Assembly (NCBI GenBank): GCA_951406725.2 | Contig: OX597818.1 | Span: forward strand, 26,288,001-26,352,000 | Source: Octopus vulgaris | Taxonomy: Eukaryota | Direction: 5' to 3' | DNA length: 64,000 nucleotides | Part shown: positions 5,688-35,477 of the stretch, piece by piece | Layout of the letters: the number at the start of each line of letters is the position of its first letter | How positions within the stretch are numbered: position 1 is the first letter of the stretch | Position numbers and translations under genes: made by a program | Notes under the pieces: generated by a model | Seen by the model: the letters and a program-made list of their open reading frames with translations, nothing else | Told to the model about the DNA's origin: nothing | Databases searched by the model: none

Positions 5688-6210
5688 GATTCAATTGAAT
5701 CAAGGTATTTTAATAACAAAGGCACCAAGGTAGAGTCAAGGACAGCATACTCATATATCAACAGTGTGTACAGACTCACGTACTTACTAGAGCATGTGGG
5801 AATTTGTCCTTCCAGTTACGCATACATCCACAAGTATTGACCAAGTACACTCAATGTATACATAAAATCACACAAGGGTATATTCCAGCATGAGGTCCAC
5901 TGTAGGCTCAAGATCCAATGCAGGGAAGGTTCCAAGTGTGGTGTAATATAAATGAAAATGCAAATGGGCTGAGGTTCACTACAGCTGATTCAGATGTATT
6001 TTTTATTGATGAGCAAATCAATTACAACCTGTAAAAAAAACGTTTCCTTCAGGTGAATTATAATTAAAATTAGATTTAACATTTAGGATTTTTCACACAA
6101 ACAGTATAGAATGCACATTAACTTGCACATCTCAGTGCTGGTTGAAAGAAATGTTAAAATTATTTTTAATTCACCTGAAAAAAATGTTTTTTTTTACATG
6201 ATGTATATAT
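5688..6210 (-). mobile_element. Hammerhead-bearing repeat (Penelope-like/retrozyme-like), same family as 18810-19305
   Basis: About 330 bp similar to 18810-19135; degenerate hammerhead at 6057-5975; partial inverted duplication near 6165-6200. Confidence 0.6.
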
Positions 6211-6611
6211 TATATCTATATATATTTTGGACATCAGTGTAAAAACATTTACATTTGGTTACATACACATGCACTCGCCTCCTCCTCTTTGCTTTAATGT
6301 CCAATTTTCCATGCAAGCATGGGTCAGACAAAATTCACCAAGACAACTTTTCTACAACTAGATGCTGTCTTTGTTGTCAACCTTCACTTGTTTCCAAGCA
6401 AAGTTAATATCTCCCCTAGTTCTTCAAACAGGATCAGTACAAAGATCGGACATATTTTTGTAACAGATTGCAAACAAACACCACCATTCATTTCACAGTG
6501 ACACTTATTTACAACTGGCATGCAATATCAAGGCAAGAAGACACACAAACTTACACTCAAATATACAGTAACATACTCATACACAGGTGCACGTGCACAC
6601 AGACACACACA

Positions 6612-7345
6612 AATGGCTTCTTTCAGTTTCCATCTACCAAATCCACTCCTAAGGCTTTTCTTGGCTTAGGGCTTTAATAGAGACATTTGCCCAACATGCT
6701 GTACACTGGAACTAAACCTGAAACCCTGTGCTTGCAAAGTAAATTTCTTAACCACACAGCCATGCCTGTGCCTATAACAAGGAAAAGTTGCATGTGTGTG
6801 TTTGAGAAGATGTTATTTTTATATTCATCCATCCATTTTTTCCGTTCGCTATTCGTAGAAATCAAGCTTCTTACCATACAACCATGCCTAACATAGAAAG
6901 CATGAACTTTTAGAATATTACATTTCAAACTTATCTTCATAAAACATGTATTTCAGAATATACAACAATTAACCAGACATGGCTGTGTGGTAAGAAACTT
7001 GCTTTCCAACCACATAATTCCGGGTTCAATCCCACTGTATCGCATCTTGGGCAAGTGTATTTTACTATAGCCTCAGGCTAACCAAAGCCTTGTGAGTGAA
7101 TTTGGTAGAAGGAAACTGAAAGAAGTCTATTGTGTATGGTGTGTGTGTGTGTGCGCGCGCATATTTATGTCATCATTACTTGACAATCAGTGTTAGTGTG
7201 TTTACATTCATGTCAGCAAGAGAGGCTAACAGAATAAGTACCAGGGTTAAAAAAGAAAAACGTACTTGGGTTGATTCACTTACACTAAAATTCTGCAAGG
7301 TGGTGCCCCAAAATGGCCACAGTCTAAATATTGAAACAAGTAAAT
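6612..7345. mobile_element. tRNA-headed SINE family 1, head-to-head pair (6612-6770 -, 6977-7345 +); other copies near 8150-8305, 9700-9800, 10690-10800, 18097-18240, 32857-33010, 48285-48380, 49960-50115, 61570-61700
   Basis: Recurring GGCATGGCTGTGTGGTAAGAAG (A box)...GGTTCAATCCC (B box)...TTGGGCAAGTGTCTTCTACTATAGCC...CCAAAGCCTTGTGAGTGGATTTGGTAGA. Confidence 0.8.
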
Positions 7346-8308
7346 ATACACATGTATGATACGAGTAATTTTGTGTAATTTACCTGCGTTACTGATGACA
7401 TTAAAATTCAAATATATGACAAACAAATATTTGAATTGGAGAAAAATATGGGCTGCTTCTAAGAGAATCTAACTAAATAAGGAATTAAATATTGAAATTT
7501 TCTTTTCTACATTACAGTGAGAATGTTCAACAAATTGACAGGATAATTGCAGCTCAAGTAACAGGGAGATGAATATAAGTGGTACAGAGGATTGGACAGA
7601 GTGAGTGGGCAGGTAAGTTTGTGGGGGTATTAAAGGAATGTAGGAGATTGAGAAGAAGGGAATGCTACAAGTGAACACAGGCAGACAGAGATAGTGTTCG
7701 GAAGATGAGTTATGGGGTGGAGAGATTTGTTAGGGACAGATTGTGTGCAGGTAAATTTTAGGTTGTCCCACTGCACAGAACTTTAGGTATGCATCTCTTA
7801 TTATAACCTCTGGCCAGCCAATACTACCAAGTGACTTTTGTAGATGGAAGCAGTAGGAAACCGTTGTTTATATAGCATCATTATCATTAACATCACTTTA
7901 GTGTCCACTTTTTCATGTTTGCATGGTTTAGACAAAATTAGTTGAGGCAGATATTTTATGGCTGGATGCTCTTCCAGTCACTTACCTTCACCTTTTTCAA
8001 AGCAAAACTGAACATGTTTTCACATGATTTTCCAATGGCTGAACATGTTTTCTCAGAACTTTGGGTATAAAGGACACTGCTGTATGACAGTAATGCTTGT
8101 ATATAACTAGTGTACAATGTCAAGACAAAGACACACACAACACACATACACTAAAGGCTTCTTTGAGTTTCTGTCAACCAAATCCACTTACAAAGATTTC
8201 ATAAGCTCAGCACTATAGTAGAGGACTTGCTCAAGGCAATGCAAAGTGGGACTGAATCCAAAACCATGTAATTGGAAAGCAAACACCTTAACCACAGAGC
8301 CATGCTCA

Positions 8309-8311
<3 letters not shown>

Positions 8312-8359
<48 letters not shown>

Positions 8360-8400
8360 GCTCAGATATATGTGCATGTGTATATACACACACACATACA
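8312..8400. repeat. (GT)n/(TA)n/(CA)n microsatellite; similar tracts at 20168-20220, 23268-23289, 35349-35372, 56582-56608
   Basis: Directly visible dinucleotide runs. Confidence 0.95.
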
Positions 8401-8879
8401 CATTGTTGTATTGAACAGTGTTTATTATAACTGCACACAATCCTTTAATCTCAAAACTTTACAACTGAATACCCAAGCTGTGACAGTGAACTTATATACA
8501 CTCATACACATAAATATACATGGATATGCATATACATATTTACATATACATACATGCATTACAGACACATACATACTCAAGCATATATACATATACACAC
8601 AGAGTCATGTGAAAACAATGTTTATTCAAATACAGTTATATCCACATGTAATTCTCTTTACACACAGAAGTTTTATCAACTAAATAGCCAAGCTGTTACC
8701 TTATACCTAGACTGATGAATCATTTGTAAGCACAGAATGCATACAGAACATTAGCTTAAGAATAGTATCTAATCTCCAGAAAACAAATTGGTTTCATTCC
8801 TTTCTTTATTGATGAACTAATCTAACACCATTTACTATGCTTGTTCCAGAATCCATTGTCAAATCACACTCCATATTAA

Positions 8880-9099
8880 TCCTTTAGCATTCAGATTACT
8901 CTGTCAAATGTAATACTTATTTATTCACACTGTTTTGAATTAATCATACATCATCTTGGAGGTTTGAGATTTCAACGATGTGATTGTTTAATTTTAGAGT
9001 GACCTTACTGGTTAGGTGTGAGAGGCTGGATCTGACCAGTTTGAACATCAAACAGGCAGAATATCTGAGCCAGATATGGCCAGTATAAATGCGAAAGAG
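8880..9099. mobile_element. piggyBac-type MITE with TTAA target sites; inverted sister copy at 10271-10435
   Basis: TTAA|TCCTTTAGCATT...AATGCGAAAGAG|TTAA; the internal sequence is the reverse complement of 10271-10435, also TTAA-flanked. Confidence 0.7.
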
Positions 9100-9133
9100 T
9101 TAACAGAGTATGAAATATCATTTAAAAGCTTAC

Positions 9134-9318
9134 AGAATTGATTCTGCATTTTGTTCGCTCTGGATATTGTGTTATCTAATTTTACCAGGTGGCATTCTCA
9201 GTTTACCCTTAAGTGTTATTGTTTGCTTGAGATATAAATCTATCTTGCTTTGGTTTATTGTTTCTTCTACACTGATACCAAACTGTGCAGCAGTTACAGG
9301 AGACATTATTGTTTTTGC
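9134..9318 (-). other. Putative upstream exon of gene A (5'UTR or alternative N-terminus)
   Basis: Non-repetitive island between repeats. Acceptor CTTTGACAG at 9319; candidate donors TCT|GTAAGC (9134) and CTG|GTAAAA (9186). Confidence 0.4.
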
Positions 9319-11159
9319 CTGTCAAAGCAGATGAACTAAGAAGTTTCCTGAGTTAAGGATTGTTCAATAACTCAAAAGCATGTCGCTTAAAAATGCTATA
9401 ATAGAACCCTTATTCAATAAATCATCATCATAGTTTAATGTTTGCTTTTTCATGTTTGCATAGTTCAAATGGAATTTGCTAAGGCAGGCTTTTCTTGGCT
9501 GGATGCCCTTCCTGTTGCTAACCTTCAGCTGTTTTCAAGCCAGGTAATATTTCTCCAATGGATAGATATGTTTTACATGGAAAACTGGAAACAAAAACGC
9601 TTGTATAATAGTGATACTCATTTACAGTCATCACATGATGTCAAGACAAAGGTAAACACACATAATACATATACATACATATATGATAAAGTTTCAATCA
9701 GGTCTATAGCAGAAGACACTTGCCCAGGGTGCTGTACAGTGAGACTGAACCTAAGACCACATAGTTGGGGAAGCAAGCTTCTTAACCACACAGCCGCCAT
9801 TTTAACACTTGCAAACCTTTCTCTCTGAAATTCTATTTGGTTTTTGGAAGATATGGTGATATTTTTGTTTTGTTCTTCATTTGACCTTATTAAGCCATTG
9901 ATTATCACAAAATTCACAGGCATTGTTAGACATCCATTCTTCTGGGATATTGACCTGCTTACCTGTTTCTTTTTTTATTCTTAACTCCAATTACTTTTGG
10001 CCACTCACAGTATGTATTAATGAATATTAAGAACAGTTCATAATTCTTTACATAAGCATAAGCCATAAGAACACATCAAAACTTTAGTTTCTTTAGGCTG
10101 TGTCTGCACCATGTGAGGAATCCTGCTTATATTCTAACAGCCATCCTCACCATAACCTGGCCACCATGCATCTAATTTCAATCCATTCCTTTTAACCACA
10201 GAGCTACAATGTACCTCATTAAACAGGTTGATCAAACAATTCTCCTTCCACCCATTTTCCAATGACTTAACCATTTTACATTTAAACCAGCCAGATCCAG
10301 GCCAAATATTCTGTTTTATGTTCAAACTGGCCTGGTCTGACCTCTCACACCTACCCTACAATGTCATTCTAAAACAATATCACCAAACTCTCAAAGCTAT
10401 AAGATATTACATTTAGCAATCTGCATCATAAAGAGTTAAATGGCCTTTCAAAAACAGAACAAGTACTTCAATTATTTTTTTGTTTTTACTTGTTTCAGTC
10501 ATTACACTGTGGCCATGCTGGAGCACCACCTTGAGGAATTTTAGTCACATGAATTGACCTCAATACTTTTATTTTTAAGCCTGGTACTTATTCTATTGGT
10601 CTCTTTTGCTGAGCCACTAAGTTTTGGAGAGGTAAACACACCAAGATCAGTTGTCAAGCAGTGGTGGGGGTCAAACACTCACACGCACACAAGAGGCTTC
10701 TTTCAGTTTCTGTCTACCAAACCTACTCACAAGGTTTTGGTCAGCCCGGGGATATAGTTGAAGACACTTGCCCAAGGTGCCATGTAGTGGAACTGAATTC
10801 ATATAAGATTTTAGGGGCTCCATACAGCAAAATAGTAAATTAGGAATCCACAATAATACTTTAAGGGCCCTTGAAAAAAAACTTTTGCTTTAGATATTGG
10901 TGTGTATTGCAAGAAACAGCTAGGTTTCTTTCTCTAATATTTTACATAGTTCAACCTACACAAGTTAATGTAAAACAAAATAGCAATTTTGAAAGACGTT
11001 TCTATAAAACTAGTTTTTAAATATCGAATGGCTATGAGTCCACCAGAATAGAATAGTAATTTAAAAGGATTCATAGATAAAAAAAAATGATAAAGAACTT
11101 TTGCTTTGGAGGAACCATAATTTCTTGCCAAAATAGTAGCTATGGTCTGAGACAAATTT

Positions 11160-12680
11160 TAATTTCTGGTTAAGCAGTAAATGGCATACTCTTCAAATAT
11201 ACCATACAATCACCAAGCTTCCTTTCCAATATTTGAATATCTTATTTCATCTGTGGTTGATGCCTTTGACAAATACAATATGGCTATCTTACAAAAGTAT
11301 TCCTGATTCCTGACATAGCCTTTTTACTTGCATCACTTATTAAGGTGCTTCTTTCACCTTCACAGCATCATAAATCTTGCTCACTGGCCTCTATCCAGAC
11401 TTCAGCTTTATATGCTAAAACACCTTCTATTGTTGGATCTTCCATGAAAATTGTACATCATGCTTACAAAGTGGAGATATGAAATCTAAATAATGATTGA
11501 TAAAATTTAAACAAAAATTAACAAAACTAAGAAAATATTCAAATTGCTTTTTGTTCTGTTCTTAAGTAGTTTTTACATCCATAATTCTCACTACTAAATG
11601 ATGATCTAATGATATACACTCTTTTGTAAATCTATATTTCAGAAAGAAACACAAGTCATCAGTCCATCAGATTTAGTTCAATTGATTGCCATATTTGATA
11701 CTTACAACCTTTTTTATGACCTTATCTATGTAGGTTTTCAAGAGTTTTAGCCTCAATACATCAACCAAGTTGATAAACAGTCACATTACCTCATTCCTAA
11801 TATGTTCAACTGCTCTCCAAAAGATAGCACAAGTTGTCATAATTCCATATAGAAGAGATGTCCATCTGATAAGACCCAAGAACTTCTTAAAGACCTTTGT
11901 TAATTAGTTACCTTAACTTCACTTCACTAATAGTTTAATGTATATTGCTAATGGTCTTGTCTCAAAATAGCTTCCTTTGAGAAGAATGTACACCTTAAAA
12001 CTTTTCAATATCTCAAATTGACCTGTAGCTTCAATCATAAATTACTGTTAAATTATAAACATTCAAGTCCATACTAACATGATTTTGTGGGTTTCTTTAA
12101 TGAACAGCAACAAAAATATTCACACCCTCAATTCTCTTATCAATTTCTATTAATGAGTTTAATTTTCCAAAAATTTTAAAGAATGATCCACCAATTTGTT
12201 TTAAATCACACTTTCTTAGTTTTGGTTTATTTAAATTTACCAAAAATTTCTGAGGTATGATAAAGTTGACTACAAATTCACAAAAACAAATTGACTGTCA
12301 CTTTTTCACTCTGTCAAACTACAAACAGCCATGATATGCTTATATGGAAAACTGGAAACAAACATCATCAAAATTAGCCATTCTCTTAATTTTGCATTCT
12401 TTCTCCTCCTAATTCCTCTATAATCACCTCTCCATTAGTAATTGTTCCCCTCATTCTCTATGTCAGTATTGATTGTGAATGTTTGTCCTACTATTGCATT
12501 TGCTAATCATCCTTCCAAAGAGAATGTTTGGGGTTTCCTACATGAAGATACTTGTGAATCATGCTTCATGAGAGTTGATATTTTTGTAGATACACTTCTT
12601 GTAATATTGCCTTATTATGTACATCAGTTTGCATGATAAGCATTAATACATCGACCATTCACCAAAGTTTTGAAATAGCT
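11160..12680 (-). pseudogene. Very decayed LINE-like coding relic
   Basis: Only faint RT-like fragments (e.g. IAILYLSKA, compare LD.SKAFD) among many stops. Confidence 0.25.
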
Positions 12681-12769
12681 GCAAAGATTTATTTACAAGT
12701 TGTAATACATATATATGTAACATCTCATATAAATTGATTCCTTCTATCTATAATTGTTTACCAATCTTG

Positions 12770-14090: not shown

Positions 14091-14202
14091 TTTGAATTTA
14101 ACTCATTTGGGATTACCTTGATAACATTGTGTTAGCATATATTTTCGGATATATTAATTTGACTGGTATTTTGTACCTTTTTTCTATATCTAAATATACT
14201 GG

Positions 14203-15583
14203 TGTAGGGAAGGATTCGTAACAGACAAACTGTAGACAGATACTTCGCTGTGGGCTAGCTAGGAAGTTGGTCAGCAGGAGGAAAAAGGACTTCTGGCAGG
14301 AGAACAAAAACAGAAGAATGTCTGCAGCGAGCATGGAACAAATCTGAGTGAACTATACAAAAATAACTGATGACTTAATCCATGGCTAGCAACAAAACAC
14401 CACTGGGGCTACCAGGGTTCTGGTCTAAGAGGGCTGAGCTATGGTTCACGCAGGCGGAAGCTCAATTCGATATAAACAAGATAACAGCCAACCAAACAAA
14501 GTACTCACACGTGGTGGCACTAGACGAAGACACAAGTAGGGTGGTGGACATTTTAACCCATCCCCCACCAATAGAAAAATACACCATATTGAAAGATAGG
14601 ATAGTGAACACATTCCGACACAGTGAAAGAGAAGCGGCAGTCAGGATACAGGAGGAGGAATTAGGTGATTCCAAGCCTTCAGAACTGATGGACAGGATGT
14701 TGGCATTAGTCCCCTCTGGTGAGTCACCTTCCTTTTTGTTTAAAGAAATATTCCTCCACAAGCTCCCACCCCAGGTCCAGGCCCTCATAACTCAGACGTA
14801 AATCAAGGACCTGCGGCAATTAGCAAAGGCAGCTGACAGGCATTTTTATCCAGTGGTGTCCTGGTCAACACCATAGGGTTGGCCCTAAGACAGGGTAGGG
14901 TTAAGCATGATGATCTGTGCTTCTACTATGCAAAGTTTGGAAAAAGGCAACAAAATGTAAACAACTATGTAGCTTCAGGGCTCCTTCACCAGTGACTCAT
15001 GGACACTCCAGGGCCAATGGGTCCACAATCGAGACATACGGTCCTCAACAACAACACATATGCTTCCATGCCTCTTGCAACATCTGCACATGCTGCCCCC
15101 TGCAGAGCAACCATCATGCAGACCAAGAACGAATTTTTGGATCTTCTTGTTAGTTGCCCCAATCTCACCAGTCCGACATTCTCCAAACCTACAGCCCGCC
15201 ACGGGATGACACACCACATCTCCACCACCGCCCCCCCCCCCCAGTGCACAACCACATATGTCATCTATCACCAGACAAACTTGCAATCGCAAAGGCCGAG
15301 TTCAACAATATGGAGGCATTGGGTATAGTTCACCAATCAAGCAGTCTCTGGTCATCACTCCTGCATGTGGCCTCTAAATCCAATGGAGGGTATCAACCCT
15401 GCGGAGATTACCACCATCTCAATGCAGATACGACACCTGACCACTACCCCATTCCAAATATACAAGATTTTTCAGCCCAGCTAGCCAGGTGCTCAGTTTT
15501 CTCCATGGTTGACTTCATCCAGGGATACCACCAAATACCAGTACAAGATGATGATGTACCAAAAACCACTGTGATCACCCCAG
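14203..15583 (+). mobile_element. Ty3/Gypsy LTR retrotransposon relic (short putative 5' LTR, gag, internally deleted pol, truncated in RT)
   Basis: Gag LPGFW..RAELWFTQAEAQF...ELGDSKPSELMDRM (14382-14801); RT AKAEFNNMEALGIV..SSS.WSS.LH...CGDY..LNA.T.PD.YPIPNIQDF...FS.VDF..GYHQIPV...DVPKTTVITP. TG...CA block at 14203-14359 with a PBS-like CTGATGAC; no protease visible. Confidence 0.9.
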
Positions 15584-15744
15584 TAGTTGTATACTGTCAA
15601 CTTAATGTGACAGTCTTATGAAGGGAATCACACCACTGCTATTTAGCCCTAGGAAGCAGCAACGCTTCCTGTCAGCCTTAACACATTTCCTGTGTCCTTA
15701 TGTTTACAGTAGGGAGATAAGCACCTCCACCCAGCTAAGCCTGC

Positions 15745-15790
15745 ACCCAAAGACTAGTTTCTGAGTCTTTGCTCATCATCAGTCTGGAGT
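15745..15790 (-). ncRNA. Minimal type-I hammerhead ribozyme, core intact, in a ~250-bp repeat (15584-15835)
   Basis: Minus strand: ACTCCAGA-CTGATGA-TGAG caaaga CTCA-GAAA-CTAG-TC^-TTTGGGT. Stem I CCAGA/TTTGG, stem II TGAG/CTCA, palindromic CTAG stem III, GUC cleavage triplet (cut 15752/15751). Confidence 0.75.
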
Positions 15791-16228
15791 AGCATGGCCT
15801 GCTAGTTGGAAATGTCCATCTAGCCCCTGTAAATATATAAGAATTCTAGTGAAATAAATCTACTGATTACAAAAATAGAAATATTACATTTCTAAATATC
15901 TCAGAGAGATATAAGCAGAGTACGATAGAGTAGCAATTACAGAAAGATAGGGGGGATACAAAATAAAACGTGGAGCCTCTCGTTCCTCTGTCTCCCCGCA
16001 AAAATGATTCATAAAACACAAATAGATAACTAGAGGGAAAAGACAAAAAAGCTGTCCAAGGAAAAGGTTTAAAGTCTGATAAACTAATAGTAATTTTTTT
16101 TTTTCACTGTTAAAATAAGGTAGTTTGATCCTGTTAAGAATTACAGCACAATGTTTGTTTTGATTCTGTGAACCGGATTTAATGAGTGTGGATAAGACAG
16201 TGAAAGAGATCTAGCAATGAGTATTGGT

Positions 16229-17660: not shown

Positions 17661-18255
17661 TTTAACATAAAACTCAGAACTTTAATTGCATTAACAGTTA
17701 CTGTTATTTTCATTAAGCATCGGGTTGACTCTTAACGAGAAGACGCATGACAGATGTTTCATCCGTGACCATCACTTTTTTTTAAAATATTTTTACTATA
17801 GTATAGTTTAAGGAAGATTTAGCTGCTATTTCGAGCAGGTCAAAGGACCACGTAAAGGCTGGCGTTAATCCTTACTTTTAAACTTTGCTCTCTTGAACCC
17901 GGAATTACTGAACTTCTGTTAATTTACAATTCAGGTATTTAATTACAGCAACGTCCGGTTTTCAATTATTCAATGTCAACACACGATAAAACTTATCTGT
18001 GGTACAATACTAGTTGTATTTCTCTTTCACCATACATAAGGACAAAACGAAAATTTGTGGCCCTTCACACTTGCACTCTGTTCTGTCTGTTCCACTTATG
18101 CATATAGGCATGTGAGTATGGTTAAGAAGCTTGCTTCATGACTATGTAATTTCTTTATCAGTCCCACTGCATTATATCTTGAGTAAGTGCTACAGTCATG
18201 GACTAACCAAGTGGATTTGATAGAAACTGTATAAAGCCAATCACACACACACACA

Positions 18256-18788
18256 TCTATATATATATAAAACTGTAGTTGTGTGAGTGTCTGTCCCCTT
18301 CGATTTAGATTCCTAACTACTCCCACATTTTGCGGTGCAGTTTAACCAAATTCGGGTATCTTATAGTCGTAATTCATATCGAGCCCGTCTGGCTATTAGC
18401 GCGCATCTACGATGAGTCTACGATTTTTAAAATAATTTAACATCATTTTTTATTCCATTTTAATGCATAATTTTTCGTGTGTCGATGGCGGCGGAGTTGG
18501 CGTCCACGGTCACACCTGCACCTGTTTGCTTCTCCCCCTTCTTACCTCCCTCGTGAAGCTGTGGGGAAGGGAGTGTAAGGAAATCAACGTCGTAAAGCGT
18601 TGTCAAGGAGACCAGTGTTCTTTTAGAACAAAGACACTGAGTCAACGATTTAAAAAAAAAAATTATCATCATTTTTTATCATCATTTTTTATTCCATTTT
18701 TAATGCATTTTTTTTGCTATAACTCTCTAAAAATGCTTATATAGTTATTTCCCTTACAAACCCGAACAACGCCGGGCGATACTGCTAG
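18256..18788 (+). mobile_element. Non-autonomous Helitron
   Basis: A|TC 5' end, subterminal hairpin CCCG-aacaacgc-CGGG (18761-18776), CTAG|T 3' end, no TSD; CpG-rich, so probably young. Confidence 0.85.
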
Positions 18789-18809
18789 TTATATATAAAT
18801 ATAAATCTT

Positions 18810-19305
18810 CTGGATTCAAAAGAATCGGGTATTTAAATAGTAAAAGCACCAAGGTAGAGTCGGGGATAGTGCACCTGTGTACCAACAATGTATACTAACG
18901 TATACGTACTTATTTAAGTAAAAACAGATTTACCCTTCCAGTTATGCATACTTCACAAGTAACTAACTGAATACACGTGTCATCAAAGTCATACAGGGGT
19001 GCACATTCAACTTCGACTATAGACATCAGATCCAAACGTATGGAAGGTTCCGAGTTAGGTGGAGAATAAATAATAACACAAATGGGTGCAGTTCACTACA
19101 GCTGTTTCAGACGTGCTCTTTATTGATGAACCAAAATTATTCAACCTGGCACTATATCCTGTTTTGTAAGAGGTTTTTATTGTTAATTCATACATGTATT
19201 CACCTGATGAAAACAGTGGGGGGGGGGGTTGCATTATGTAACACTTGTTTATCATTAAAGAATACATCTGAAACAGCTGTAGTGAACTTGCAACCCATCT
19301 GTGTT
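18810..19305. mobile_element. Hammerhead-bearing repeat with ~60-bp internal inverted arms (19075-19135 / 19245-19305)
   Basis: Arms CAAATGGGTGCAGTTCACTACAGCTGTTTCAGA.../...TCTGAAACAGCTGTAGTGAACTTGCAACCCATCTGTG; homologous to 5688-6210. Confidence 0.65.
19199..19286 (+). ncRNA. Type-I hammerhead ribozyme motif, core intact, large poorly closed stem II
   Basis: TTCAC-CTGATGA-(59 nt)-GAAAC-AGCT-GTA^-GTGAA; stem I TTCAC/GTGAA, palindromic ACAGCTGT stem III. Confidence 0.6.
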
Positions 19306-19815: not shown

Positions 19816-20084
19816 TATATTTATTTGTATCGTTTGTAGAAATACATAAATACGTGGGAGAGGCACACTCTAAGATGTAGAGCAGTTGAATCCGCAAGGC
19901 GACACTACAGCCAGGGGCCAATAGCCAAGGCCAAATGGAGACAATTGTTTACCTTAGTGGTTCTTGGGTGGCAGTGTAGCCAAAGCTTGATGACCGATAG
20001 CAAAGGGAGATAATCACCTAGTGTTTACTTTTATAGAGGCATTTCCATCTCCATATTTTGAAGGGGTCTTAGGCCAGTAGTGTT

Positions 20085-20147
20085 TGGGGTCTGAAGATAC
20101 GCAGTAAGGCTAAACCCCTTATGAGCAAGAAACCCAGAGCAACCCCA
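20085..20147 (+). ncRNA. Degenerate type-I hammerhead motif in a ~340-bp element (about 19826-20166)
   Basis: TGGGGT-CTGAAGA-(stem II TAAGG/CCTTA)-GAAAC-ccaga-GCA-ACCCCA; U16.1 replaced by C. Confidence 0.55.
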
Positions 20148-20166
20148 TAAACCGGCCCCCATTACA

Positions 20167-21725: not shown

Positions 21726-22425
21726 AAACAAATTGCAAATTGAGACTGTCTGATTTTAAAACTATGATAAAAATATTTTTTTAAAAAGCCAAAATTTTAG
21801 GATTTATGGCAGGGCAGGGTTAATGAAAAAATTTTAAAAAAGACTTCACTATTGTTTCCAAATTTCATTTCATTTTCTGTTTAAATATAAAGGAAGTGGG
21901 AACTGTGATGATGATCACCATTTTATTTCTCTTTTTAAGCCTTCAAGACTTCTCCCATCGTTATTAAGTATGTAGTTCAAAAAGAAAAAAAATCTGAGTT
22001 AGGGAGAGGGATTTGAACAATTTGTAATTTTTCAAGAAAGACTATTTTTTTCTACCAAAAAAACACCTTCCATTGTTTGTAAGTGCACAGTGCAAAGAAA
22101 ATATTGAACAAAATTAGTCTGGAAGGGGTGAGGAGGAGAACCATAAATTTTCCAAAAATATTTTTGCATAAAAGTTTTCCCCCATCCTTTGCAGTGGAAA
22201 AAAAATTTGTAAAGTCCATGTCAAAATGGAGAGTCATTCCAAAAGTCTACCAAGCCATTCTATTGTGAAAATTACCTGGCAAGGACAAAATATTCAACTA
22301 ATATATATATATATATGTATGTATGTATTAATAATAATATGACAACAAAAGAATGAAAGAGGCCGCGATATTATGTAAATAGAGGAATTTATCTGTAAAT
22401 ATATGTCATAATTAGTTGGTTGTCA

Positions 22426-22488
22426 TAATAAAACACAGAGTTTCGGATGCTGGGGCTGAAGTCTGCTCCAGCATTTCATCAATTATTA
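22426..22488 (-). ncRNA. Type-I hammerhead motif (C3->U) within an inverted-repeat element (arms 22400-22455 / 22533-22588)
   Basis: Minus: TAATAA-TTGATGA-aATGCTGG...CCAGCATcc-GAAAC-tctgt-GTT^-TTATTA. The mirrored arm reads GAAACTCTGAGTTTTATTA. Confidence 0.6.
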
Positions 22489-22597
22489 AGAGAAACAAAA
22501 ACACTATGAATAAAACCGTTGAATAAAGGGAACCCCAGCATCCGAAACTCTGAGTTTTATTATGACAACCAACTAATAGTCACATATATATATATAT

Positions 22598-23267
22598 ATC
22601 ATCATCATCGTTTAACGTCCGTTCTCCATGCTAGCATGGGTTGGACGGTTCGACCGGGGATCTGGGAAGCCAGAAGGCTGCACCAGGCTCCAGTCTTATC
22701 TGACAATGTTTCTACAGCTGGATGCCTTTCCTAACGCCAACCACTCCGTGAGTGTAGTGGGCGCTTTTTACGTGCCACCCGCACAGGTGCCAGGCGAGGC
22801 TGGCAACCGCCACGGTCGGATTGGTGCAATTTGTGCCACCAGCACGGAAGCCAGTCGAGGTGGCGCTGGCATCGGCCACGAGTCGGATAGTGCTTTTTAC
22901 GTACCACCAGTCCAGGGGTCCAGGCATCTGCCGGGTGCCAGTCATAGGATTGGTTCAATTCGATTTCACTTGCCCCAACATGTCTTCGCAAGCAAAGGGG
23001 GTTGGCATGGGTGCCTGTCGTCGGATGAGGTTCTATATCGACTTCGCTTGCCTCAACAGGTCTTGGTGTCCAAGGGAGGAAAGGCATGCATAAGTGGGCT
23101 GGGCTCACTTGTCCTGCCTGGTCTTCTCACGTACAGCATATTTCCAAAGGTCTCGGTCGCTGGTCATTTCCTCAGTGAGGCCTAAAGTTCGAAGGTCGTG
23201 CTTCACCACCTCGTCCCAGGTTTTCCTGGGTCTACCTCTTCCACGGGTTCCCTCAACTGCTAGGGTT
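22598..23267 (-). mobile_element. Young 5'-truncated RTE LINE inserted in a (TA)n tract
   Basis: LAVEGTRGRGRPRKTWDEVVKHDLRTLGLTEEMTSDRDLWKYAVREKT* plus 3'UTR and (GAT)n; (TA)n on both flanks; CpG retained. Confidence 0.92.
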
Positions 23268-23289
23268 ATATATATATATATATATATAT

Positions 23290-28200: not shown

Positions 28201-28229
28201 AGCTGGAAGTACACTCGCTCCAACTTCCG
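27934..28229 (-). promoter_or_regulatory. Candidate promoter motifs: XBP1/CREB3/ATF6-like TGCCACGTAA (27934-27943) and ETS-like CGGAAGT (28223-28229)
   Basis: Motifs read directly from the sequence; function inferred from position next to the donor at 27791. Confidence 0.35.
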
Positions 28230-28698
28230 TTCTAAATAAATTTATTCCTCTCTATAAAGTCTGTGTCTTCCCTCCTCTTTCTTTAGCTCAATCACTAACT
28301 AACACTACTACTTCCTTTTCGGTGAAATAAAAATATGACTGCTAAGATAAATATTTCCTTTACTTTCTTTTGAACACATTCATGTATATCGTCTCATTTA
28401 ACTAATAGTAGTCCTCGAAAATAGTCTTCACATGTTTTATTTATATTTTATTGGGGAAATCCTGTTTACAAGAATATTAATTACTCTAACCACGAAGTAT
28501 CTGGTGGTAGACTTAATACATTGCTTAGTTTAAGACCACCGCTTACACCTTTGGTGTCTCTTTATTATAGTCCATTCTGTTAACAGCATTTAGGAGAATG
28601 TGGCGTGCAGCATGTCCTCCTGTGATTGTGCTATTAAAAAGCGTCATCCAATTGTAGTAAAATTCATTTTCATTTATATAGCACTAAAAGTAAATGCT

Positions 28699-29495
28699 TT
28701 AATAATTTAGTATGATTTTATTGATTTGGAATACAAGTCTAGCTTGGGTTTCCTCTGCAATTCTTACCTGCAAGGTAGTTAGAAAAATAATGAAGTTAAA
28801 ATCAAGCTATATTAACTTCTACAAAAATTAGCCTTGTACCTACTTGTAGCAGAGCTACATATTACATAGTAATATGTGAGTTGACCTGCACTGCAGACGA
28901 ATATATCAATGAGGTGACTAGCCTCGCTTTGATACAGTAGCCTCGTTCTGAGCTATACTGTAGACATTCTCAGTTCCTGCCAAGCTTTGATCAAAGATAC
29001 ACGTCTTCTCTATAGCTCTACATGCGATCTTCCGTGTGCAACTCACATGTCTATTCACCTTGACACAAGATATATGGTTCATAAACGAACATATTTTATC
29101 ACACACACATTCTCAATATGACTGTTCTCATTACACACATGCATACATACTGTAATACAAATATATGTTACTTCTTTCAATGCAAAAGTAAAAATCAAAA
29201 CTTTCTTTGCATGTAAACACATGTTTTTGTATCATACTATATGCTTCCACCACAAAAGGTGAATACAGAATAAACAATATATTTATACACAAAAAATGTC
29301 TTATGGTGATTCATACTAACTGTTTTTCCATTTAATAAAATGCACTTGAACAGCCAACGACTGCCACTATATATTAAAATAAAATAATTTAAAGCTATAT
29401 ATGGTTTTCAAATATTATACCTTCAACATGTTCATGTTGCAAATAACTCTCAGCTGTTGATTCAAGAATTCAATTTCAGCTTCTACTGATTGCAT
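28699..29495 (-). CDS. Possible spliced 47-aa microprotein (exons 29495-29421 and 28767-28699)
   Basis: TTTTGCTAACAG acceptor (29501), AAG|GTATAA donor (29421), TTTTTCTAACTACCTTGCAG acceptor (28768). Phase-0 join gives MQSVEAEIEFLNQQLRVICNMNMLKVRIAEETQARLVFQINKIILNY*; AATAAA at 28447-28452. No homology recognised. Confidence 0.3.
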
Positions 29496-30519
29496 TACTC
29501 CTGTTAGCAAAAGGTGTCAATAATAACAGATCACTGATATAGGCTTAAATGAAAAGTAAACCATAGACTATCATATCCATGAAGTGCTGGTATGTCAGAT
29601 GCAGCATTTATAAAACTGAATGGCATTTAAAGAAACAGGAAAAGGCCAAAAGGAAGTGTAACAGATTTGTAGGGAGAGCAACAGTTTATATGTTGAAAAG
29701 GCTATAGTTCTTAAGTTAGGTCTCACCAATCACAAAGTGTAATTGGTAGTTAGGATATATAGTAGATGTTAGGTCACCAAGAATGCAATGGCTGCATTGG
29801 TTATCTTTGAAATCCTTAGAAGAAAATAATAGTTGAAACAGCCTTTATTTTATCAGTACACTTCACTCTTCAACAGTCTACTTCTGTCACTTTCTAGCAC
29901 TTTCACTGAGATACAAACCAACTTTTCATATGTGCAAACCTTACTATTATTATCATCCTTTCACATGAAAACATCTGGTTGCTACAAGTCTTTATGTATT
30001 ATACATCAGACACAATGTAAAAGTGAAAAATCAATTGTGACAGTTGAATAAAATCTGTGATAAGTATTTTTCTTTTGTCAGTTTATTTTGGTACATATCT
30101 TATTATCACACACAGGCTCCACTAAACCTCTTACTGATACCAATCATACATACAGCTGTTGCAGATGCTTACAAAGTTCTGATTATATAATTATATTTAA
30201 TAAAACTCTAATCAGCAAAAGTAACTGAAAAAGAGAAAATGCATATTTCAGATCTTTTAAATTTTTGTACCCATGCATAATGTGCATCACACTTTTGGAA
30301 GACAGAAAAGTAGACTTCCGGTAATGCAGATGCAATGATATACAGTAACTGAGCAAATTTAGCATCAGCATGCCTACACATATATGCTCTAATGAATTTC
30401 TTTCCTCATAACTTTCAGAAAAAGGGGTATTTTTTAATGAAATTTTCTACAAATATACTTCAGATTCTGATTATATTGGAATTTGCTGTGAAATAACAAC
30501 AATACAACTTTTATGTTTG

Positions 30520-31860
30520 ACTCACACAGCGGCCACATCTTGACAATTTCAATTTTCAGGTCTCCATGTTTGTTGACTTTTTTTCTTTCTTTCATGACAA
30601 TATGTTAATCTCCTGGCACTACCACATCAACTATTAGGCACTCTTGCTTGTCCTCTTTGGTGCTCTAACACCTTGTCTATCTGAAAGTCAAAGTCCTAGA
30701 GGATATTTGTCTTCCTAATTTAGTCCATTACCTTTTTCCAGTGTATGGTGGTACAAAGCACCCTTTACCTCATATCCATACTTTCATAGCCAGTGAAAGT
30801 TTAGAGCTACCTTGTTGTGTCTGCACTGGTACTCTTTCTGTGCAAGACTTTCACAAGCGCTTACTATGTGAATCATGCTTTTGACCTTCTTCCCACACAT
30901 TCTGCAGAGGTTTGTTGCGCTTGTGTGATATATATTCCTTTTCACTGACTTGGTATTCAATACCTGGTCCTGAGCAGTGATGATCAAGCTTTCAGTCCTC
31001 TTTTTAAGGTCACCTTCACTGAACTACATCCATGATGCTTCTTGGTCTTTTAAGTTGATGGCAGTCACGAAGTTCCTTGCACTTAGTTTTGACTTCAAGA
31101 GAAGTTTGAGGTGCTTCAAATATTCAAGGTGAACTTGTCAGAGCCTTCATCAACAATGTTGTCTTTCCATCTACCATCCATTCCAGAACCTCACCATTCT
31201 GTAGACAATCATCTAATTGCAGGCCAATTCATTTGTATGTTGAATTAAACCACTTGAGCCAGTAGTCTTGGATTTCATCTGGCCCTGCTGCTCTCCAGTT
31301 TAACAGTTTTGATACCTGTGCAATTATATCTTCTGATGTTATGGATACATAATCCTGCCTTGGAGCTTCAGCGTGCTGAAGTTCAGATTTTATGGAATGA
31401 ATCCATTCAGCACTGTGGTTGTGGGAAAGCTATTGCCCCCAGATTTTATTCCAAGATTGGTGGGTTTCCTCTGCTGTCTCCACCCAAGTTTTCAAAAGAC
31501 TGCCTCTGGTTATTTGTGAATTGTCTGTTTTGATGGAAATGCAATATGTGTTCAGTGTAGTATTGCTTCTTCAATGTTTTTGCCAGAATACATTGTTTTA
31601 GGGTTTTGATAACAGTTTCTTTTCTATATGGTATTTTGTTTCAAGATAGGCCTTCTCACCTTCCTTAGTATGTTTTCATTGCCCTTTGGACTGTTCTATG
31701 CAACTCAGATTTTTACACGCAGTTTTAATATCACCATTGATTCTCCACTGCCACCATGACTCCTTCTGTCCACTTGATTTCCTCTTTGTTTTTCTAACCA
31801 GCTCACCAACTAAAATTGAAACAGATTTAATCAAGTACCTTGTTTCCAATAGATCTTCCA
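30520..31860 (-). mobile_element. R4/NeSL-like (restriction-like endonuclease) non-LTR retrotransposon relic, RT core largely deleted
   Basis: IITAQDQVLNT...CRMCGKKVKSMIHIVSACESLAQKEYQCRHNKVA (CCHC knuckle + RHN), later DFDFQIDKVLEH and IVDVVVPGD; upstream WWQWRINGDI and NWRAAGPDEIQDYWLK. Confidence 0.85.
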
Positions 31861-31974
31861 TTGGAATATTACATACAAAAATGCGAGCAAGAGAAATAAT
31901 ATTCTTAAGATTATAAACCTGGAAAATTACAGAATAAGTTATTACCTTGGATCGTAGGGTGACCTGCTGTGCTA

Positions 31975-32335
31975 GAGGAGACCTATTGAGTCAAGTATAT
32001 CAACATCAAAATAAATATCAAATGGAAATTGTAGTTGTGATACCTGGGCCGGTGGCATGTAAAAAGCACCATCTGAACATGGCCGATGCCAGCGCAACCT
32101 TGAGTGGCTTCTGTGCCGGTGGCACCAACCAATCGTGGGCACTGCCAGCCTGCCCTGGCACGTAAAAAGCACCTACTACACTCACAGAGTGGTTGGCGTT
32201 AGGAAGGGCATCCAGCTGTAGAAACACTGCCAGGTCAGACTGGAGCCTAGTGCAGCCTCCTGGCTTCCCAGGCCTCAGTTGAACCATCCAACCCATGTTA
32301 GCACGGAAAACGGATGCTAAACGATTATGATGATG
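31975..32335 (+). mobile_element. RTE 3'-UTR copy
   Basis: GGAGACCTATTGAGTCAAGT...GGTTGGCGTTAGGAAGGGCATCCAGCTGTAGAAAC...(GAT)n. Confidence 0.85.
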
Positions 32336-34094
32336 TTGCTCTGCAATCACTTTGACACCTGATGCATGATACATCGTGCACCTCTTCAGGTAATGTCAAT
32401 TTAATGGAGAGACTGAGCTAATGTGTGGCAGAATGAACATTTGAGCAGGATGTTCAGCTGTTCAGCAAAAGCTGAGTGCTCATACATTGTCTTCAACAGG
32501 AGAGTCCACCATATATATATATATAAACGGCAAAATGTCTCTGTGTGTTTCCTTTATACAAATTCACAATTTTTCAGTTTCTATGGTCATTCAAAACTGT
32601 CCAAGGGTGGTCGCGCACATCTTTACATTTCTCCAGTCACCCCGCAAAGCCATTAAAAAATCAATAGAGGTGACTTTTTTTGTGAATTTTCTATCCAAAA
32701 CCCAATCAAAATGCCCGAAACTTGATACACCAATTGAATGCTAGCTAGCTGTATGTGATTGGTCAGAGATTTGGACAGTACTCATGTGTATGTGCGCATG
32801 CAAGCAGCTGTATATGCACTAGCACTATGACCCGGTGTGTGTGTGCGTGCATAGGTGCAGGCATGGCTACATGGTAAGGAGTTTGCTTCTCAACCACATG
32901 GTACTGAGTTCAATTCCCCTGTGTTGCACCTAGTACAAGTGTCTTGTATTATAGTGCTGGGTTAACCAAAGCCTTGTAAGTGGATGTGTTGGACAGAAAC
33001 TAAAGAAAGACCATTGCAACATGCATATATATATATTTATATACACTAGATGAACCTGTAAAAACTTCATGGCAAACATAAAAAATTTAAGCATCTGTAA
33101 ATTGTGTACTGGCGCCATGAGAAATTTTTCTATATGGTGACAGTTACAGAATATAGAAAGAAGAGTAAAACTGATAACTATATAATCCAACTAAAATATC
33201 TCAGTTACGCAAATGTAAACAGAATTACTATTAAGCCTTAAAATACATTGTACATATTTAAAGAACCTTCTTGGTTTAGTGGTACGGAATGTTCTTCTGG
33301 CATTCTTTTATTCTTTTACTTGTTTCAGTCATTTGCCTGTGGCCATGCTGGAGCACCACCATTTAGTTGAAGAAATCGACCCTTGGACTTATTCCCTGTA
33401 AGCCTGGTGCTTAATCTATCAGTCTCTTGTGCTGAACCGCTAAGTTATGGAGACTCAAACACACCAACACTGGTTGTCAAGTGATGGTGGTGGGGGGACA
33501 CAGACACAAACACACACACATAAATACACACGCACACACACAAATATGTATGATGGGCTTAGCAGAAGACATTCTATGAAGTATAGAGTTGAATTTCGTG
33601 TAGCCACCTGTTGGCAACTTTTCTCCCCCACTCATTTTGTAGTGGGTATTACCCATTTTTCTGGGCTCTTTTCACAGCTATACCCCATTCGAAATTTGCA
33701 TTAGTTTTTGTATGAAAAAAAAAAGAAGGGAGGGGGAGCAGTTTGTTTGTAATTTGTAAAGAAAACGTTAAACATGTCTGATAAAAAAACATGATGTTTT
33801 TACCCAACTAAAAGACATGAAGAACTATGAAAGAAGGTGAATAAGTACCGGAGGTGGGGCAAAGAAGAAAGAACTAACACTTGATCCTTCTAGAACTCCC
33901 AAATGAAAACCTAAACGCCTGAAAGACTTTCCCTTTCTATTCATTGCTAAATCTCTTTCCCACTTCTTCATTGTAAAAGTAAAGAAGCTAGAAAAGATCA
34001 ATCATATTTCAGTCTAATTGTCATTTTAAATGACTGAGGCTTTCCTTTCTCTGTCTCTGTCACTTCACTCTTTTTCTCTCTGGTTAAGAGAGTG

Positions 34095-34415
34095 AAGGTG
34101 CATGGCTCAGTGGTTAGGGATATACGGCCCATGATCATAAGGTCATGAGTATGATTCCCGGTAGCGTGCTGTGTTCTTGAGCAAGGCACTCTACTTTACC
34201 TTGCTGCAGTCCATTTGGCTGGCAAAAATGAGTTGTAGCTGTAATTCATTGGGGCCAGCCTTGTCACGTTCTGTGTGAGGCTGAATCTCCCTGAGAACTA
34301 TGTTAATGGTATTCATGTCTGTAGAGTACTCAGTCACTAGCTCGTTAATTTTACTAGCAGACTGTTCTGTTGATCAGAGAAACAAGAACCTCATCGTTGA
34401 AACTGATGGAGTGTC
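34095..34415 (+). mobile_element. tRNA-headed SINE family 2 (also 24460-24780, 34720-34880, 53652-53960)
   Basis: GAAGGTGCATGGCTCAGTGGTTAG (A box)...GATTCCC (B box)...GTGTTCTTGAGCAAG.CACTTTA core. Confidence 0.75.
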
Positions 34416-35431
34416 ATTTTTTAAAAAGAGTGAAAGAAAAGGAAATGTTTTATATCGTAAGGCAAAAATGTCATGTGTTTAGTATAAGCAGTGAAAGCTA
34501 AGACGAAATAATTGCTATTCCATTGTGTAGTGACTTTGCCCTCAACTCATGCTCAATTTGATAACAACAGCCTGCACATCAGTGTTTATTTGGGGGCTTG
34601 GCCTCCAGATCTGTGAGACCTACAAATGTTGGTATTAAGACTGGTATTAAGAATGGCTAAAAAGATTTTCCTGCCTCTATATAGGATCTTTTTTCATTTT
34701 CTTCCAACCACTTGAAGGTTTATCTTGCTCCAGTCCATGCAGTTAGCCAAAATGAGTTGTAGGTGTAATTGAAAGGGGCCAACCATGTCACATTCTGTAT
34801 GAGGCTGAATCTCCCAGAGAACTATGTTAATGGTATGCATGTCTGTGGAATACTCAGCCACTTGTGCATTAATTTTATCCTTGTGTGGTAATGAAAAGTG
34901 AAAGTGACATCCAATATTTGCTGTAGTTATTTGTCTTTGATTTAACTATGTGTGTATGTATCTACTTTTCTTTCAATCTATGTATCCACTTTGCTTTCGA
35001 TGTATGTATCAGTCTACTCTGAAAATACTGATAAACATTTAAAAAGATAAAACGAACGCCACCTTCCTTTCAGTCACCACTCACTGTCTCTCTCTTTCTG
35101 TGTCACTTCCTCTTTGTCCCTCCTCTCTCCTGCTTTGCCACTCACTTCTAATATACCTCCTCTTTTATTTCTTTTTTTCTTTGTACCTTTCCCTTTTACT
35201 TTTTAACCCCTTCCTTTGAAGTAAATGTGGTACACACCACAGGTATGTATGTAAAAAAACAAAGATTAGCATATCAATATTATTGATGTTGATGTATATT
35301 TGTTTGTATACATACATAATACATATATGCATACAACTTACACACATGCACACACACACACACACACACACAGATGCACACAAAAACACACATATATATA
35401 TACTTTATTGGAAAGCAGCAAAAATATCACA

Positions 35432-35477
35432 AAAACTGTTACTCAGAGTTTTACGTTCCTGTTTGTCAGACAGTTTT
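35432..35477 (-). ncRNA. Inactivated minimal type-I hammerhead motif
   Basis: Minus: AAAACTGT-CTGACAA-acaggaacgt-AAAAC-tctga-GTA^-ACAGTTTT; perfect 8-bp stem I, G8->A and G12->A. Confidence 0.65.

What the first reader, a model, noticed from the sequence alone, without database searches (positions are those of the whole stretch)
5975..35477. Cluster of six type-I hammerhead ribozyme motifs in about five different small repeats
Seen: CUGANGA / GAAA / NUH cores closed by a stem I at 6057-5975(-), 15790-15745(-), 19199-19286(+), 20085-20147(+), 22488-22426(-) and 35477-35432(-). Stem I sequences differ between families yet still pair. Stem III is always short, and palindromic in some (CTAG, ACAGCTGT). 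Known: minimal type-I hammerheads of this kind mark Penelope-like elements and non-autonomous retrozymes, and often cleave as dimers. Inference: this genome carries a diverse, probably unannotated set of ribozyme-driven non-coding retroelements, about one per 5 kb here. No Penelope RT/GIY-YIG ORF is visible in the window.
Basis: partly seen in the sequence, partly recalled or inferred. Interest (0 to 1): 0.8.

Follow-up and report, generated by a model that had tools for sequence, protein, structure and literature searches.

The report
Octopus retrozyme plus decayed Penelope hammerheads
Six hammerhead (self-cutting RNA) motifs sit between two octopus genes; four have broken cores, one intact motif belongs to a very common 350-base non-coding repeat that occurs head-to-tail elsewhere, and all are likely leftovers of Penelope-type jumping elements, a kind already known from other animals.

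Summary
All six motifs are at the stated coordinates, in five families, between the SEL1L and UBR7 genes of an octopus. Only S2 (15788-15746) and S3 (19199-19286) keep a perfect core. S4 and S5 have one core change; S1 and S6 have two. Perfect and one-change hits exceed shuffles; two-change hits do not.

S2 is the substantive result. It is one 347-nt unit plus 5 nt, ORF-less, inserted in a Gypsy remnant. Public contigs show a high-copy family with head-to-tail joints. The hammerhead tips a roughly 50-bp rod (z -5.1), and other copies' letters strengthen that rod, with one clear and one probable compensatory pair. This fits a metazoan non-LTR retrozyme.

S1, S3 and S5 are fold-back stubs with an inverted partial copy; S4-S6 end 25-37 nt before (TA)n. 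That is the Penelope-type insertion footprint; whether these are retrozymes or ends of coding elements is unresolved. Cleavage, circles and the mobilising enzyme were not shown.

The kind is known from coral, mussel and vertebrates; my searches found no cephalopod paper. This scan reported the same kind many times on other octopus DNA.

The parts
15582..15933 (-). S2 element: one 347-nt retrozyme-type unit plus a 5-nt terminal redundancy, no ORF, inserted into a Gypsy RT remnant
   Evidence: Depth jumps at 15582 and falls by about 15935; joints go back 327-338 nt from 15910-15918 to 15581-15585; same 5 nt at both ends and longest sense M-ORF 14 aa
15746..15788 (-). S2 type I hammerhead, intact core; predicted cut between 15752 and 15751; palindromic stem III
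   Evidence: other copies turn both stem I G-U pairs into Watson-Crick pairs (15750 in 98-99%, 15746 in 68-78% of summed depth in X1/X4)
15699..15837 (-). Long rod (about 50 bp) that extends stem I of S2, with the hammerhead at its tip
   Evidence: Predicted fold z -5.1, 0 of 100 shuffles; majority letters -136 vs -98.7 +/- 6.2 kcal/mol for random changes, 0 of 300; pair list
14379..15581 (+). Decayed Gypsy-type LTR retrotransposon remnant (gag-like DUF7041, RT fragment); target of the S2 insertion
   Evidence: Pfam DUF7041 E 2.5e-16, RVT_1 E 6e-4; Gypsy assignment from the protein's look (recalled family knowledge)
5690..6205 (-). S1 element: fold-back stub; minus arm with hammerhead and about 290 nt downstream ending in TA-rich DNA, plus an inverted partial copy at about 6155-6205
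   Evidence: Inverted arms 6033-6072/6155-6194; 68% identity over 371 nt to the S3 minus arm; alignment
5975..6057 (-). S1 hammerhead, decayed (A9 and A15.1 changed)
18806..19305 (.). S3 element, same family as S1: minus arm about 19170-18806 with the 3' half of the hammerhead, inverted plus arm about 19180-19305 with the whole hammerhead, followed by a SINE-like repeat
   Evidence: Arms 19090-19131/19247-19288, 88% complementary; summed depth about 4,000 at 18904-19139
19199..19286 (+). S3 hammerhead: intact core and stem I, 8-nt palindromic stem III, stem II region 59 nt and poorly paired
   Evidence: hammerhead fold not the predicted minimum, z 0.17
19917..20165 (+). S4 element (left end not fixed): hammerhead 20085-20147 with U16.1 changed to C, extended stem I, 25 nt before (TA)n
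   Evidence: another copy laid over 19917-20137 with 32 other letters and 13 gaps (X4 record 21)
22390..22598 (.). S5 element: 209-nt fold-back stub with TA-rich ends; minus arm carries the hammerhead 22488-22426 (C3 changed to U), plus arm 22533-22598 its 3' half and tail
   Evidence: Arms 66 nt, 89% complementary; 93% (X1) and 97% (X4) of depth at 22482 carries the letter that gives C3; cut site 27 nt from (TA)n
35402..35477 (-). S6: probable decayed hammerhead 35477-35432 (G8 and G12 changed, 8-bp stem I) with 37-nt tail to (TA)n
   Evidence: shares the 7-nt stem III insert with the S5 plus arm; family not tested

Best explanation
The six motifs are insertion relics of five hammerhead-bearing repeat families, likely all written into the genome by Penelope-like reverse transcriptase/endonuclease enzymes: S2 is one unit of an abundant non-coding tandem family (a non-LTR retrozyme), and S1, S3, S4, S5 and S6 are older stubs that keep only the ribozyme-bearing end of a Penelope-type element. 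Shown: motif anatomy; core damage in 4 of 6; head-to-tail joints and high abundance of the S2 family; inverted partial copies at S1, S3, S5; (TA)n next to the ends. Predicted: the S2 rod, which holds stem I in register. Inferred from known families: tandem S2-family copies are transcribed; the hammerheads cut once per unit, probably as dimers through the palindromic stem III, because the monomer's stem III is predicted not to form; monomers of about 350 nt are ligated into circles; a Penelope-type enzyme nicks AT-rich DNA, copies the RNA and often adds an inverted second piece. The copies then decay, so most motifs here would no longer cut.
For: S2 family: summed contig depth mostly 1e5-5.6e5 over the unit (1.6e4-4e4 at 15804-15879) against about 45-60 for single-copy contigs; 5 of the 15 joints shown (of 34) go back about one unit, the main one in 6 contigs of X1, 10 of X4 and 1 of X14; loose ends behind 15918 (13 and 21 contigs) run into the unit's own start, not into an ORF. 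No ORF. Fold z -5.1. Nineteen majority letters of other copies give -136 vs -109 kcal/mol, random same-type changes -98.7 +/- 6.2, 0 of 300; pair 15709/15827 is C-G here and U-A in the majority; pair 15718/15818 changes on both sides at matching shares. With majority letters the outer stem I pairs reach probability 0.93-0.97 vs 0.02-0.27 in this copy. Unit size and self-pairing match mussel retrozymes of about 350-390 bp (PMC7229834). Inverted arms at S1, S3, S5 match the inverted 5'-truncated copy and 30-40-bp tail of PLEs (PMC8557442; PMC3846280) and the opposite-strand hammerhead pairs 100-700 bp apart reported for truncated PLEs (PMC4209133). S4, S5, S6 cut sites lie 25, 27, 37 nt from TATATA/ATATAT; background chance of 40 nt or less is 0.067 per site. 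S5's broken C3 is intact in 93-97% of other copies' depth. O. vulgaris has 31 recently active Penelope-like families (PMC13282606).
Against: Contigs show junctions, not whole dimers with two hammerheads. Summed depth is not a copy number (tool caveat). Variant letters are unphased, and those at 15804-15860 come from a low-depth subfamily. Several minority variants break predicted pairs. In RNA-guess run X14 one contig changes two GAAA letters (21% of depth). In S1 and S3 the inverted arm stops short of the family's shared 3' end, unlike the textbook two-3'-end layout, though at S3 a SINE-like repeat follows and may have cut it. S1, S3, S4, S6 regions show no unusual fold (z -0.2 to -0.7), and 1 of 4 control stretches reached z -2.5. 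Eight of nine predicted Xenopus retrozyme dimers did not cleave in vitro, so an intact motif is not activity. S2 itself sits in a Gypsy remnant, not in (TA)n.
Confidence: 0.65

Rival explanations
1. All five families are non-coding retrozymes; S1, S3, S4, S5, S6 are truncated or two-armed insertions of small circular RNAs rather than ends of protein-coding Penelope elements.
For: No coding remnant near any site. The S1/S3 family is 370-400 nt as far as it can be followed, a retrozyme size. The S2 family also shows opposite-strand joints at varied places (6 of the 15 joints shown, one contig each), so inversion does not separate the two kinds.
Against: No tandem joint was seen for these families (15 of 1,769 joints shown, none within S3, S4 or S5). 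No unusual fold. S1 and S3 end at the same point about 290 nt after the cut site, as a fixed element end would. Most single minimal hammerheads were assigned to truncated PLEs in PMC4209133.
Confidence: 0.2
2. The S2 family is a satellite-like repeat born from a Penelope pLTR. It was spread as part of Penelope transcripts and amplified in tandem at the DNA level by unequal crossing-over, with no circular RNA stage; the window copy is a collapsed array.
For: One unit plus 5 nt is also what collapse of an array leaves. Li et al. propose pLTR origin and local tandem amplification. An inverted repeat in DNA gives a rod without any RNA selection. No RNA evidence was obtained.
Against: Compensatory changes in the rod and an invariant core in the two DNA runs suggest selection on the RNA fold. 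Dispersed insertion into an unrelated Gypsy remnant needs transposition. Homologous kinds in coral and mussel are abundant circles.
Confidence: 0.12
3. Some listed motifs are chance matches in AT-rich repetitive DNA, above all S6 (and my extra candidate S7).
For: Two-change cores are not enriched at 5 or more pairs (6 vs 4.45; 4 vs 2.6, 71 of 300). S6's class is reached in 21 of 300 shuffles. No Rfam hammerhead match.
Against: S2-S5 exceed chance. S1 is homologous to S3. S6 shares S5's 7-nt stem III insert and the short tail to (TA)n. The confidence given is for S6 alone being chance; for the whole set it is near zero.
Confidence: 0.15

Closest known systems
Metazoan non-LTR retrozymes (Cervera and de la Pena 2020, PMC7229834; abstract and sections 13, 14, 17 read), especially the Mytilus family of about 350-390 bp
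   Same: S2: one type I hammerhead per unit of about 350 nt, no ORF, GC under 50%, head-to-tail copies, very abundant, highly self-paired fold with the ribozyme left free, mollusc host.
   Different: Cephalopod host; window copy is a solo unit permuted relative to the cut site; cleavage, expression and circles not shown; tertiary loop contacts not tested.
Minimal hammerheads in pLTRs of endonuclease-bearing Penelope-like elements (Cervera and de la Pena 2014, PMC4209133, parts 1-2 of 4 read; insertion anatomy in PMC8557442 and PMC3846280, passages read)
   Same: S1, S3, S5: short stem I, long stem II, palindromic stem III, opposite-strand partial copies about 100-200 bp apart, TA-rich flanks; S4-S6: 25-37-nt tails.
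   Different: No RT/GIY-YIG ORF attached; clade (Neptune, Poseidon, Hydra) not determined; inverted arms of S1 and S3 stop before the shared 3' end; S3 has a 59-nt stem II region.
Animal retrozymes as non-autonomous PLE derivatives (Li, Clavereau and Pollet, bioRxiv 10.64898/2026.07.22.740005; parts 1-3 of 5 read, supplements closed)
   Same: Retrozyme and PLE-type hammerheads occur together; solo monomers are common; intergenic bias, as here between SEL1L and UBR7.
   Different: Their 35 genomes were 31 vertebrates, 3 insects and 1 anthozoan, no mollusc; the sequence link between unit and pLTR that they show in Xenopus could not be tested here.

Membership tests
Type I hammerhead ribozyme | Conserved core C3-A9, G12-A15.1, U16.1-H17 | tested here: met
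   Met in S2 and S3 only; one change in S4 and S5, two in S1 and S6; S5's change is absent from 93-97% of other copies' depth
Type I hammerhead ribozyme | Stem I closes the motif; stems II and III form | tested here: inconclusive
   Stem I 5-8 bp in all six. Stem II predicted for S2, S4, S5, not for S1, S3, S6. S2 stem III probability 0.0 as a monomer, as expected for dimer-type motifs
Type I hammerhead ribozyme | Match to an Rfam hammerhead model | tested here: not met
   No hammerhead among 34 matches at E<=5 or 4 matches at E<=10 on S2; minimal motifs in print were found with RNAmotif descriptors
Type I hammerhead ribozyme | Self-cleavage after H17 | not testable with these tools
   Needs an assay; no raw RNA reads were listed
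Non-LTR retrozyme (S2) | Unit of about 150-450 nt with one type I hammerhead, no ORF | tested here: met
   347-nt unit, about 351 in other copies; longest sense M-ORF 14 aa
Non-LTR retrozyme (S2) | Head-to-tail tandem copies in the genome | tested here: met
   Joints going back 327-338 nt in X1, X4, X14 and loose ends into the unit start; whole dimers with two hammerheads not seen because contigs are short
Non-LTR retrozyme (S2) | Many copies; highly self-paired unit | tested here: met
   Depth hundreds to thousands of times single-copy level (rough); z -5.1, 66% paired; compensatory pairs
Non-LTR retrozyme (S2) | Expressed as linear and circular RNA | not testable with these tools
   Only contigs of a guessed RNA run (X14) were laid; they cannot show strand, ends or circles
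Non-LTR retrozyme (S1/S3, S4, S5, S6) | Tandem units and self-paired fold | tested here: inconclusive
   No tandem joint among 15 shown of 1,769; fold z -0.2 to -0.7 for S1, S3, S4, S6; copies are decayed
Endonuclease-bearing Penelope-like element insertion | Inverted truncated copy next to the element end | tested here: met
   S1, S3, S5; not seen at S4, S6; seen in other copies of S2
Endonuclease-bearing Penelope-like element insertion | Short tail after the hammerhead and (TA)n target | tested here: met
   S4, S5, S6 at 25, 27, 37 nt; S1 and S3 minus arms end in TA-rich DNA about 290 nt on; S2 not in (TA)n
Endonuclease-bearing Penelope-like element insertion | RT plus GIY-YIG ORF linked to the pLTR | tested here: inconclusive
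   None in 18 ORFs and 145 of 208 segments near the sites, expected after heavy truncation; full-length copies elsewhere could not be searched
Plant-type LTR retrozyme | Type III hammerhead in two LTRs, PBS, PPT, 4-bp duplication | tested here: not met
   S2 is type I; it has no second copy in the window, so it is not the LTR of the flanking Gypsy remnant; no target duplication of 6 nt or more

The most novel reading that the evidence does not exclude
The S2 insertion is a direct print of a circular RNA: it starts 182 nt before and ends 170 nt after the predicted cut site and is one unit plus 5 nt, as a Penelope-type enzyme would write when it goes once round a ring and just past its start. 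The compensated rod shows that the family is selected as an RNA. Five hammerhead families in 33 kb would then record repeated births of such RNA rings from Penelope ends in cephalopods, a group with no published retrozyme in my searches.
Probability: 0.3. Interest if true: 0.55.

Novelty: new member of a known kind. Interest (0 to 1): 0.33.

Why it matters
It extends retrozymes and Penelope-type hammerheads to cephalopods; my searches found no paper on them, and the main text of the 2026 O. vulgaris repeat annotation does not mention ribozymes (its supplements and repeat library were not seen). The S2 family is abundant, structurally conserved and has a defined unit, so it is a usable substrate for two open questions: whether Penelope enzymes mobilise retrozymes, and whether they copy circles. 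The cluster itself is mostly decayed debris and says little about host function. The same kind was already reported many times in this scan from this and another octopus genome.

Tried and rejected
Whole-genome search: no genome held, so no family consensus, copy count or link to a Penelope ORF.

Rfam: no hammerhead match.

Pattern for the S1/S3 hammerhead in viral contigs: 0 hits. Its 3' half in metagenome contigs: 7 hits, none with an upstream core within 120 nt and none similar beyond the 19-22-nt match; 6 of 7 loci are ORF-dense and look bacterial; rejected as chance.

Earlier findings by place or by sequence for S2, S3, S4, S5: nothing.

Sequencing runs: no RNA holder listed, which says nothing on expression. 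Raw DNA run X22 was too thin and filtered at repeats to count copies (110 and 5 reads laid). S1 and S6 were not covered by either read-laying run.

Idea that S2 is an LTR of the flanking Gypsy remnant: rejected, no second copy and tandem joints elsewhere.

Coding remnant near the sites: none. The 63 segments not sent were mostly SINE or microsatellite stretches, or had been scanned.

Seventh candidate S7 (8063-8003 -, one core change): made of a short direct repeat between two SINE-like pieces, no relative in the window, fold z 0.1; not accepted.

Stem III motifs of these sites were not found in the supplement of PMC8557442. PMC10886601 was not relevant. No tandem array of any hammerhead unit in the window.

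Full report
Setting. The window is octopus DNA. Exons at 5593-1539 (minus) match O. bimaculoides SEL1L at 95-97% and exons at 38754-59806 (plus) match its UBR7 at 83-100%. All six sites lie in the 33 kb between the two start codons. S1 and S6 were not covered.

The observation. I call the sites S1 (6057-5975 -), S2 (15788-15746 -), S3 (19199-19286 +), S4 (20085-20147 +), S5 (22488-22426 -) and S6 (35477-35432 -). Each has a stem I of 5-8 bp round a hammerhead-like core. Only S2 and S3 have a perfect core. S4 lacks U16.1, S5 lacks C3, S1 lacks A9 and A15.1, and S6 lacks G8 and G12. Against 40 shuffles, perfect cores were 2 vs 0.0, one-change cores 4 vs 0.58 (0 of 40 reach either), and two-change cores with at least 5 Watson-Crick pairs 6 vs 4.45 (14 of 40). 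With 300 shuffles and a stricter stem, cores with at most one change were 3 vs 0.24 (0 of 300), and S6's class was reached in 21 of 300. The four one-change hits are S4, S5, a doubtful S7 and a microsatellite hit. Rfam found no hammerhead. The sites form five families; only S1 and S3 are related. The density is 6 per 64 kb, 2 intact.

S2 belongs to a retrozyme-type family. It interrupts a Gypsy-type RT remnant at 15581 and runs 15582-15933, with the same 5 nt at both ends. In two DNA runs the summed contig depth is mostly 1e5-5.6e5 across the unit, 1.6e4-4e4 at 15804-15879, and about 45 just beyond it. The tool warns that this is no copy number; I read it only as 'very abundant'. Five of the 15 joints shown (of 34) go back 327-338 nt from the unit's right end to its left end. 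The main one is in 6, 10 and 1 contigs of X1, X4 and X14, with 14 letters between, giving a unit of about 351 nt. Loose ends at 15918 also run into the unit's start. So other copies are head-to-tail, though no contig spans two hammerheads. Six further joints shown change strand at varied places, one contig each. The unit has no ORF, and folds as a circle at -109 kcal/mol, z -5.1, 0 of 100 shuffles, with the hammerhead at the tip of a rod of about 50 bp.

Other copies support that fold. I used 35 of the 40 variant rows shown (41 in all). I left out two rows outside the unit and three (15754, 15759, 15761) that pass 20% only in X14 and are under 1% in X1 and X4; two of these lie in GAAA and come from one contig. 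The 19 majority letters lower the energy to -136, while random changes of the same types give -98.7 +/- 6.2 (0 of 300). Both G-U pairs of stem I become Watson-Crick. Pair 15709/15827 is C-G here and U-A in 94-98% of other depth. Pair 15718/15818 changes on both sides at matching shares (0.35/0.35, 0.43/0.42), probably one subfamily, but unphased. Several minority variants break pairs. Stem III is not predicted to form in the monomer (probability 0.0) and is palindromic, the arrangement for which dimeric cleavage is proposed (PMC4209133). Size, lack of ORF, tandem copies and self-pairing match the non-LTR retrozymes of coral and mussel (PMC7229834).

The other five carry Penelope-type footprints. 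S1, S3 and S5 each have an inverted partial copy next to them. S5 is a 209-nt fold-back with TA-rich ends, and its broken C3 is intact in 93% and 97% of other copies' depth. S1 and S3 share 371 nt at 68% and end at the same point about 290 nt after the cut site, in TA-rich DNA. S4, S5 and S6 have 25, 27 and 37 nt between cut site and (TA)n; the background chance of 40 nt or less is 0.067 per site. An inverted 5'-truncated copy, a 30-40-bp tail and microsatellite targets are described for PLEs (PMC8557442; PMC3846280), as are opposite-strand hammerhead pairs 100-700 bp apart (PMC4209133). Depths of about 4,000-9,500 show that S3, S4 and S5 are repeated, far less than S2. Against a simple reading: the inverted arms of S1 and S3 stop short of the shared 3' end, no RT or GIY-YIG remnant was found, and none of these regions folds unusually. 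I cannot tell whether these families are ends of coding PLEs or retrozymes.

Mechanism. Shown: anatomy, decay, abundance, tandem joints, inversions, TA targets. Predicted: the rod. Inferred: tandem S2-family copies are transcribed, cut once per unit (probably as dimers), closed into circles and copied back by a Penelope-type enzyme that nicks AT-rich DNA and often adds an inverted piece. The S2 copy begins 182 nt before and ends 170 nt after the predicted cut, so it is not a copy of the cut linear monomer. A ring copied once round plus 5 nt fits; so does a truncated copy of a tandem transcript, or a collapsed array. Activity is open: 8 of 9 predicted Xenopus dimers did not cleave.

Comparison and novelty. 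Both kinds are known, and their link is argued in a 2026 preprint that sampled no mollusc. Searches for 'hammerhead ribozyme' with 'octopus', 'retrozyme' with 'cephalopod', and 'self-cleaving ribozyme' with 'cephalopod' returned no paper on cephalopod hammerheads, judged from the listings and from passages of two papers. The library lacks most subscription papers, and supplements of the preprint and of the O. vulgaris annotation were not seen. O. vulgaris has 31 recently active Penelope-like families and that paper's main text has no mention of ribozymes. Lunse et al. 2017 on dimeric PLE hammerheads is recalled, not read. Earlier notes of this scan describe octopus retrozymes of 310-534 nt and fold-back Penelope ends on other DNA, including this genome; none matched S2-S5 by sequence. 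They led me to test S2 for tandem joints and to two papers; they are not counted as support.

Verdict. Real motifs, mostly decayed, and one well-supported new retrozyme family. New member of a known kind; interest 0.33.

Noticed in passing
window 5593-38754: All six hammerheads lie between the divergent start codons of SEL1L and UBR7; no credible one lies in the 21 kb of UBR7 or within SEL1L's coding span. Post hoc, but in line with the intergenic bias reported in Xenopus.
   Followed up: partly
window 5594-5700 (-): The SEL1L ATG is preceded by a pyrimidine run and AG, like a splice acceptor, so S1 (ending about 100 nt upstream, same strand) may lie in a 5' UTR intron; its core is doubly broken.
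   Followed up: no
window 15638: Five raw reads of X22 (2 start places) leave the S2 unit here into sequence that, in the sense direction, reaches a second hammerhead-like 5' core about 22 nt on; possibly a shorter-unit variant.
   Followed up: no
window 15804-15860: Depth drops about tenfold and 29 and 37 contigs carry another sequence behind 15805: most of the S2 family has a different segment just upstream of the hammerhead, so there are subfamilies.
   Followed up: partly
window 8063-8003 (-): Seventh hammerhead-like match with one core change and a palindromic stem III, built from a short direct repeat between SINE-like pieces; probably chance.
   Followed up: yes
window 14379-15581 and 15934-16001: Gypsy-type remnant breaks off at the S2 insertion and does not resume in frame after it; the following 70 nt are single-copy by depth and end in CA after an AATAAA-like stretch.
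   Followed up: no
window 18196-18790: Very high-copy repeat (summed depth over 1e6) abutting the TA end of S3; its end looks Helitron-like (recalled motif, not tested).
   Followed up: no
window 37429-38121 (-), 50843-52398 (-), 54558-55576 (+): LINE remnants: a zf-RVT fragment 600 nt upstream of the UBR7 start, and RT/PHD-like fragments inside UBR7 introns.
   Followed up: no
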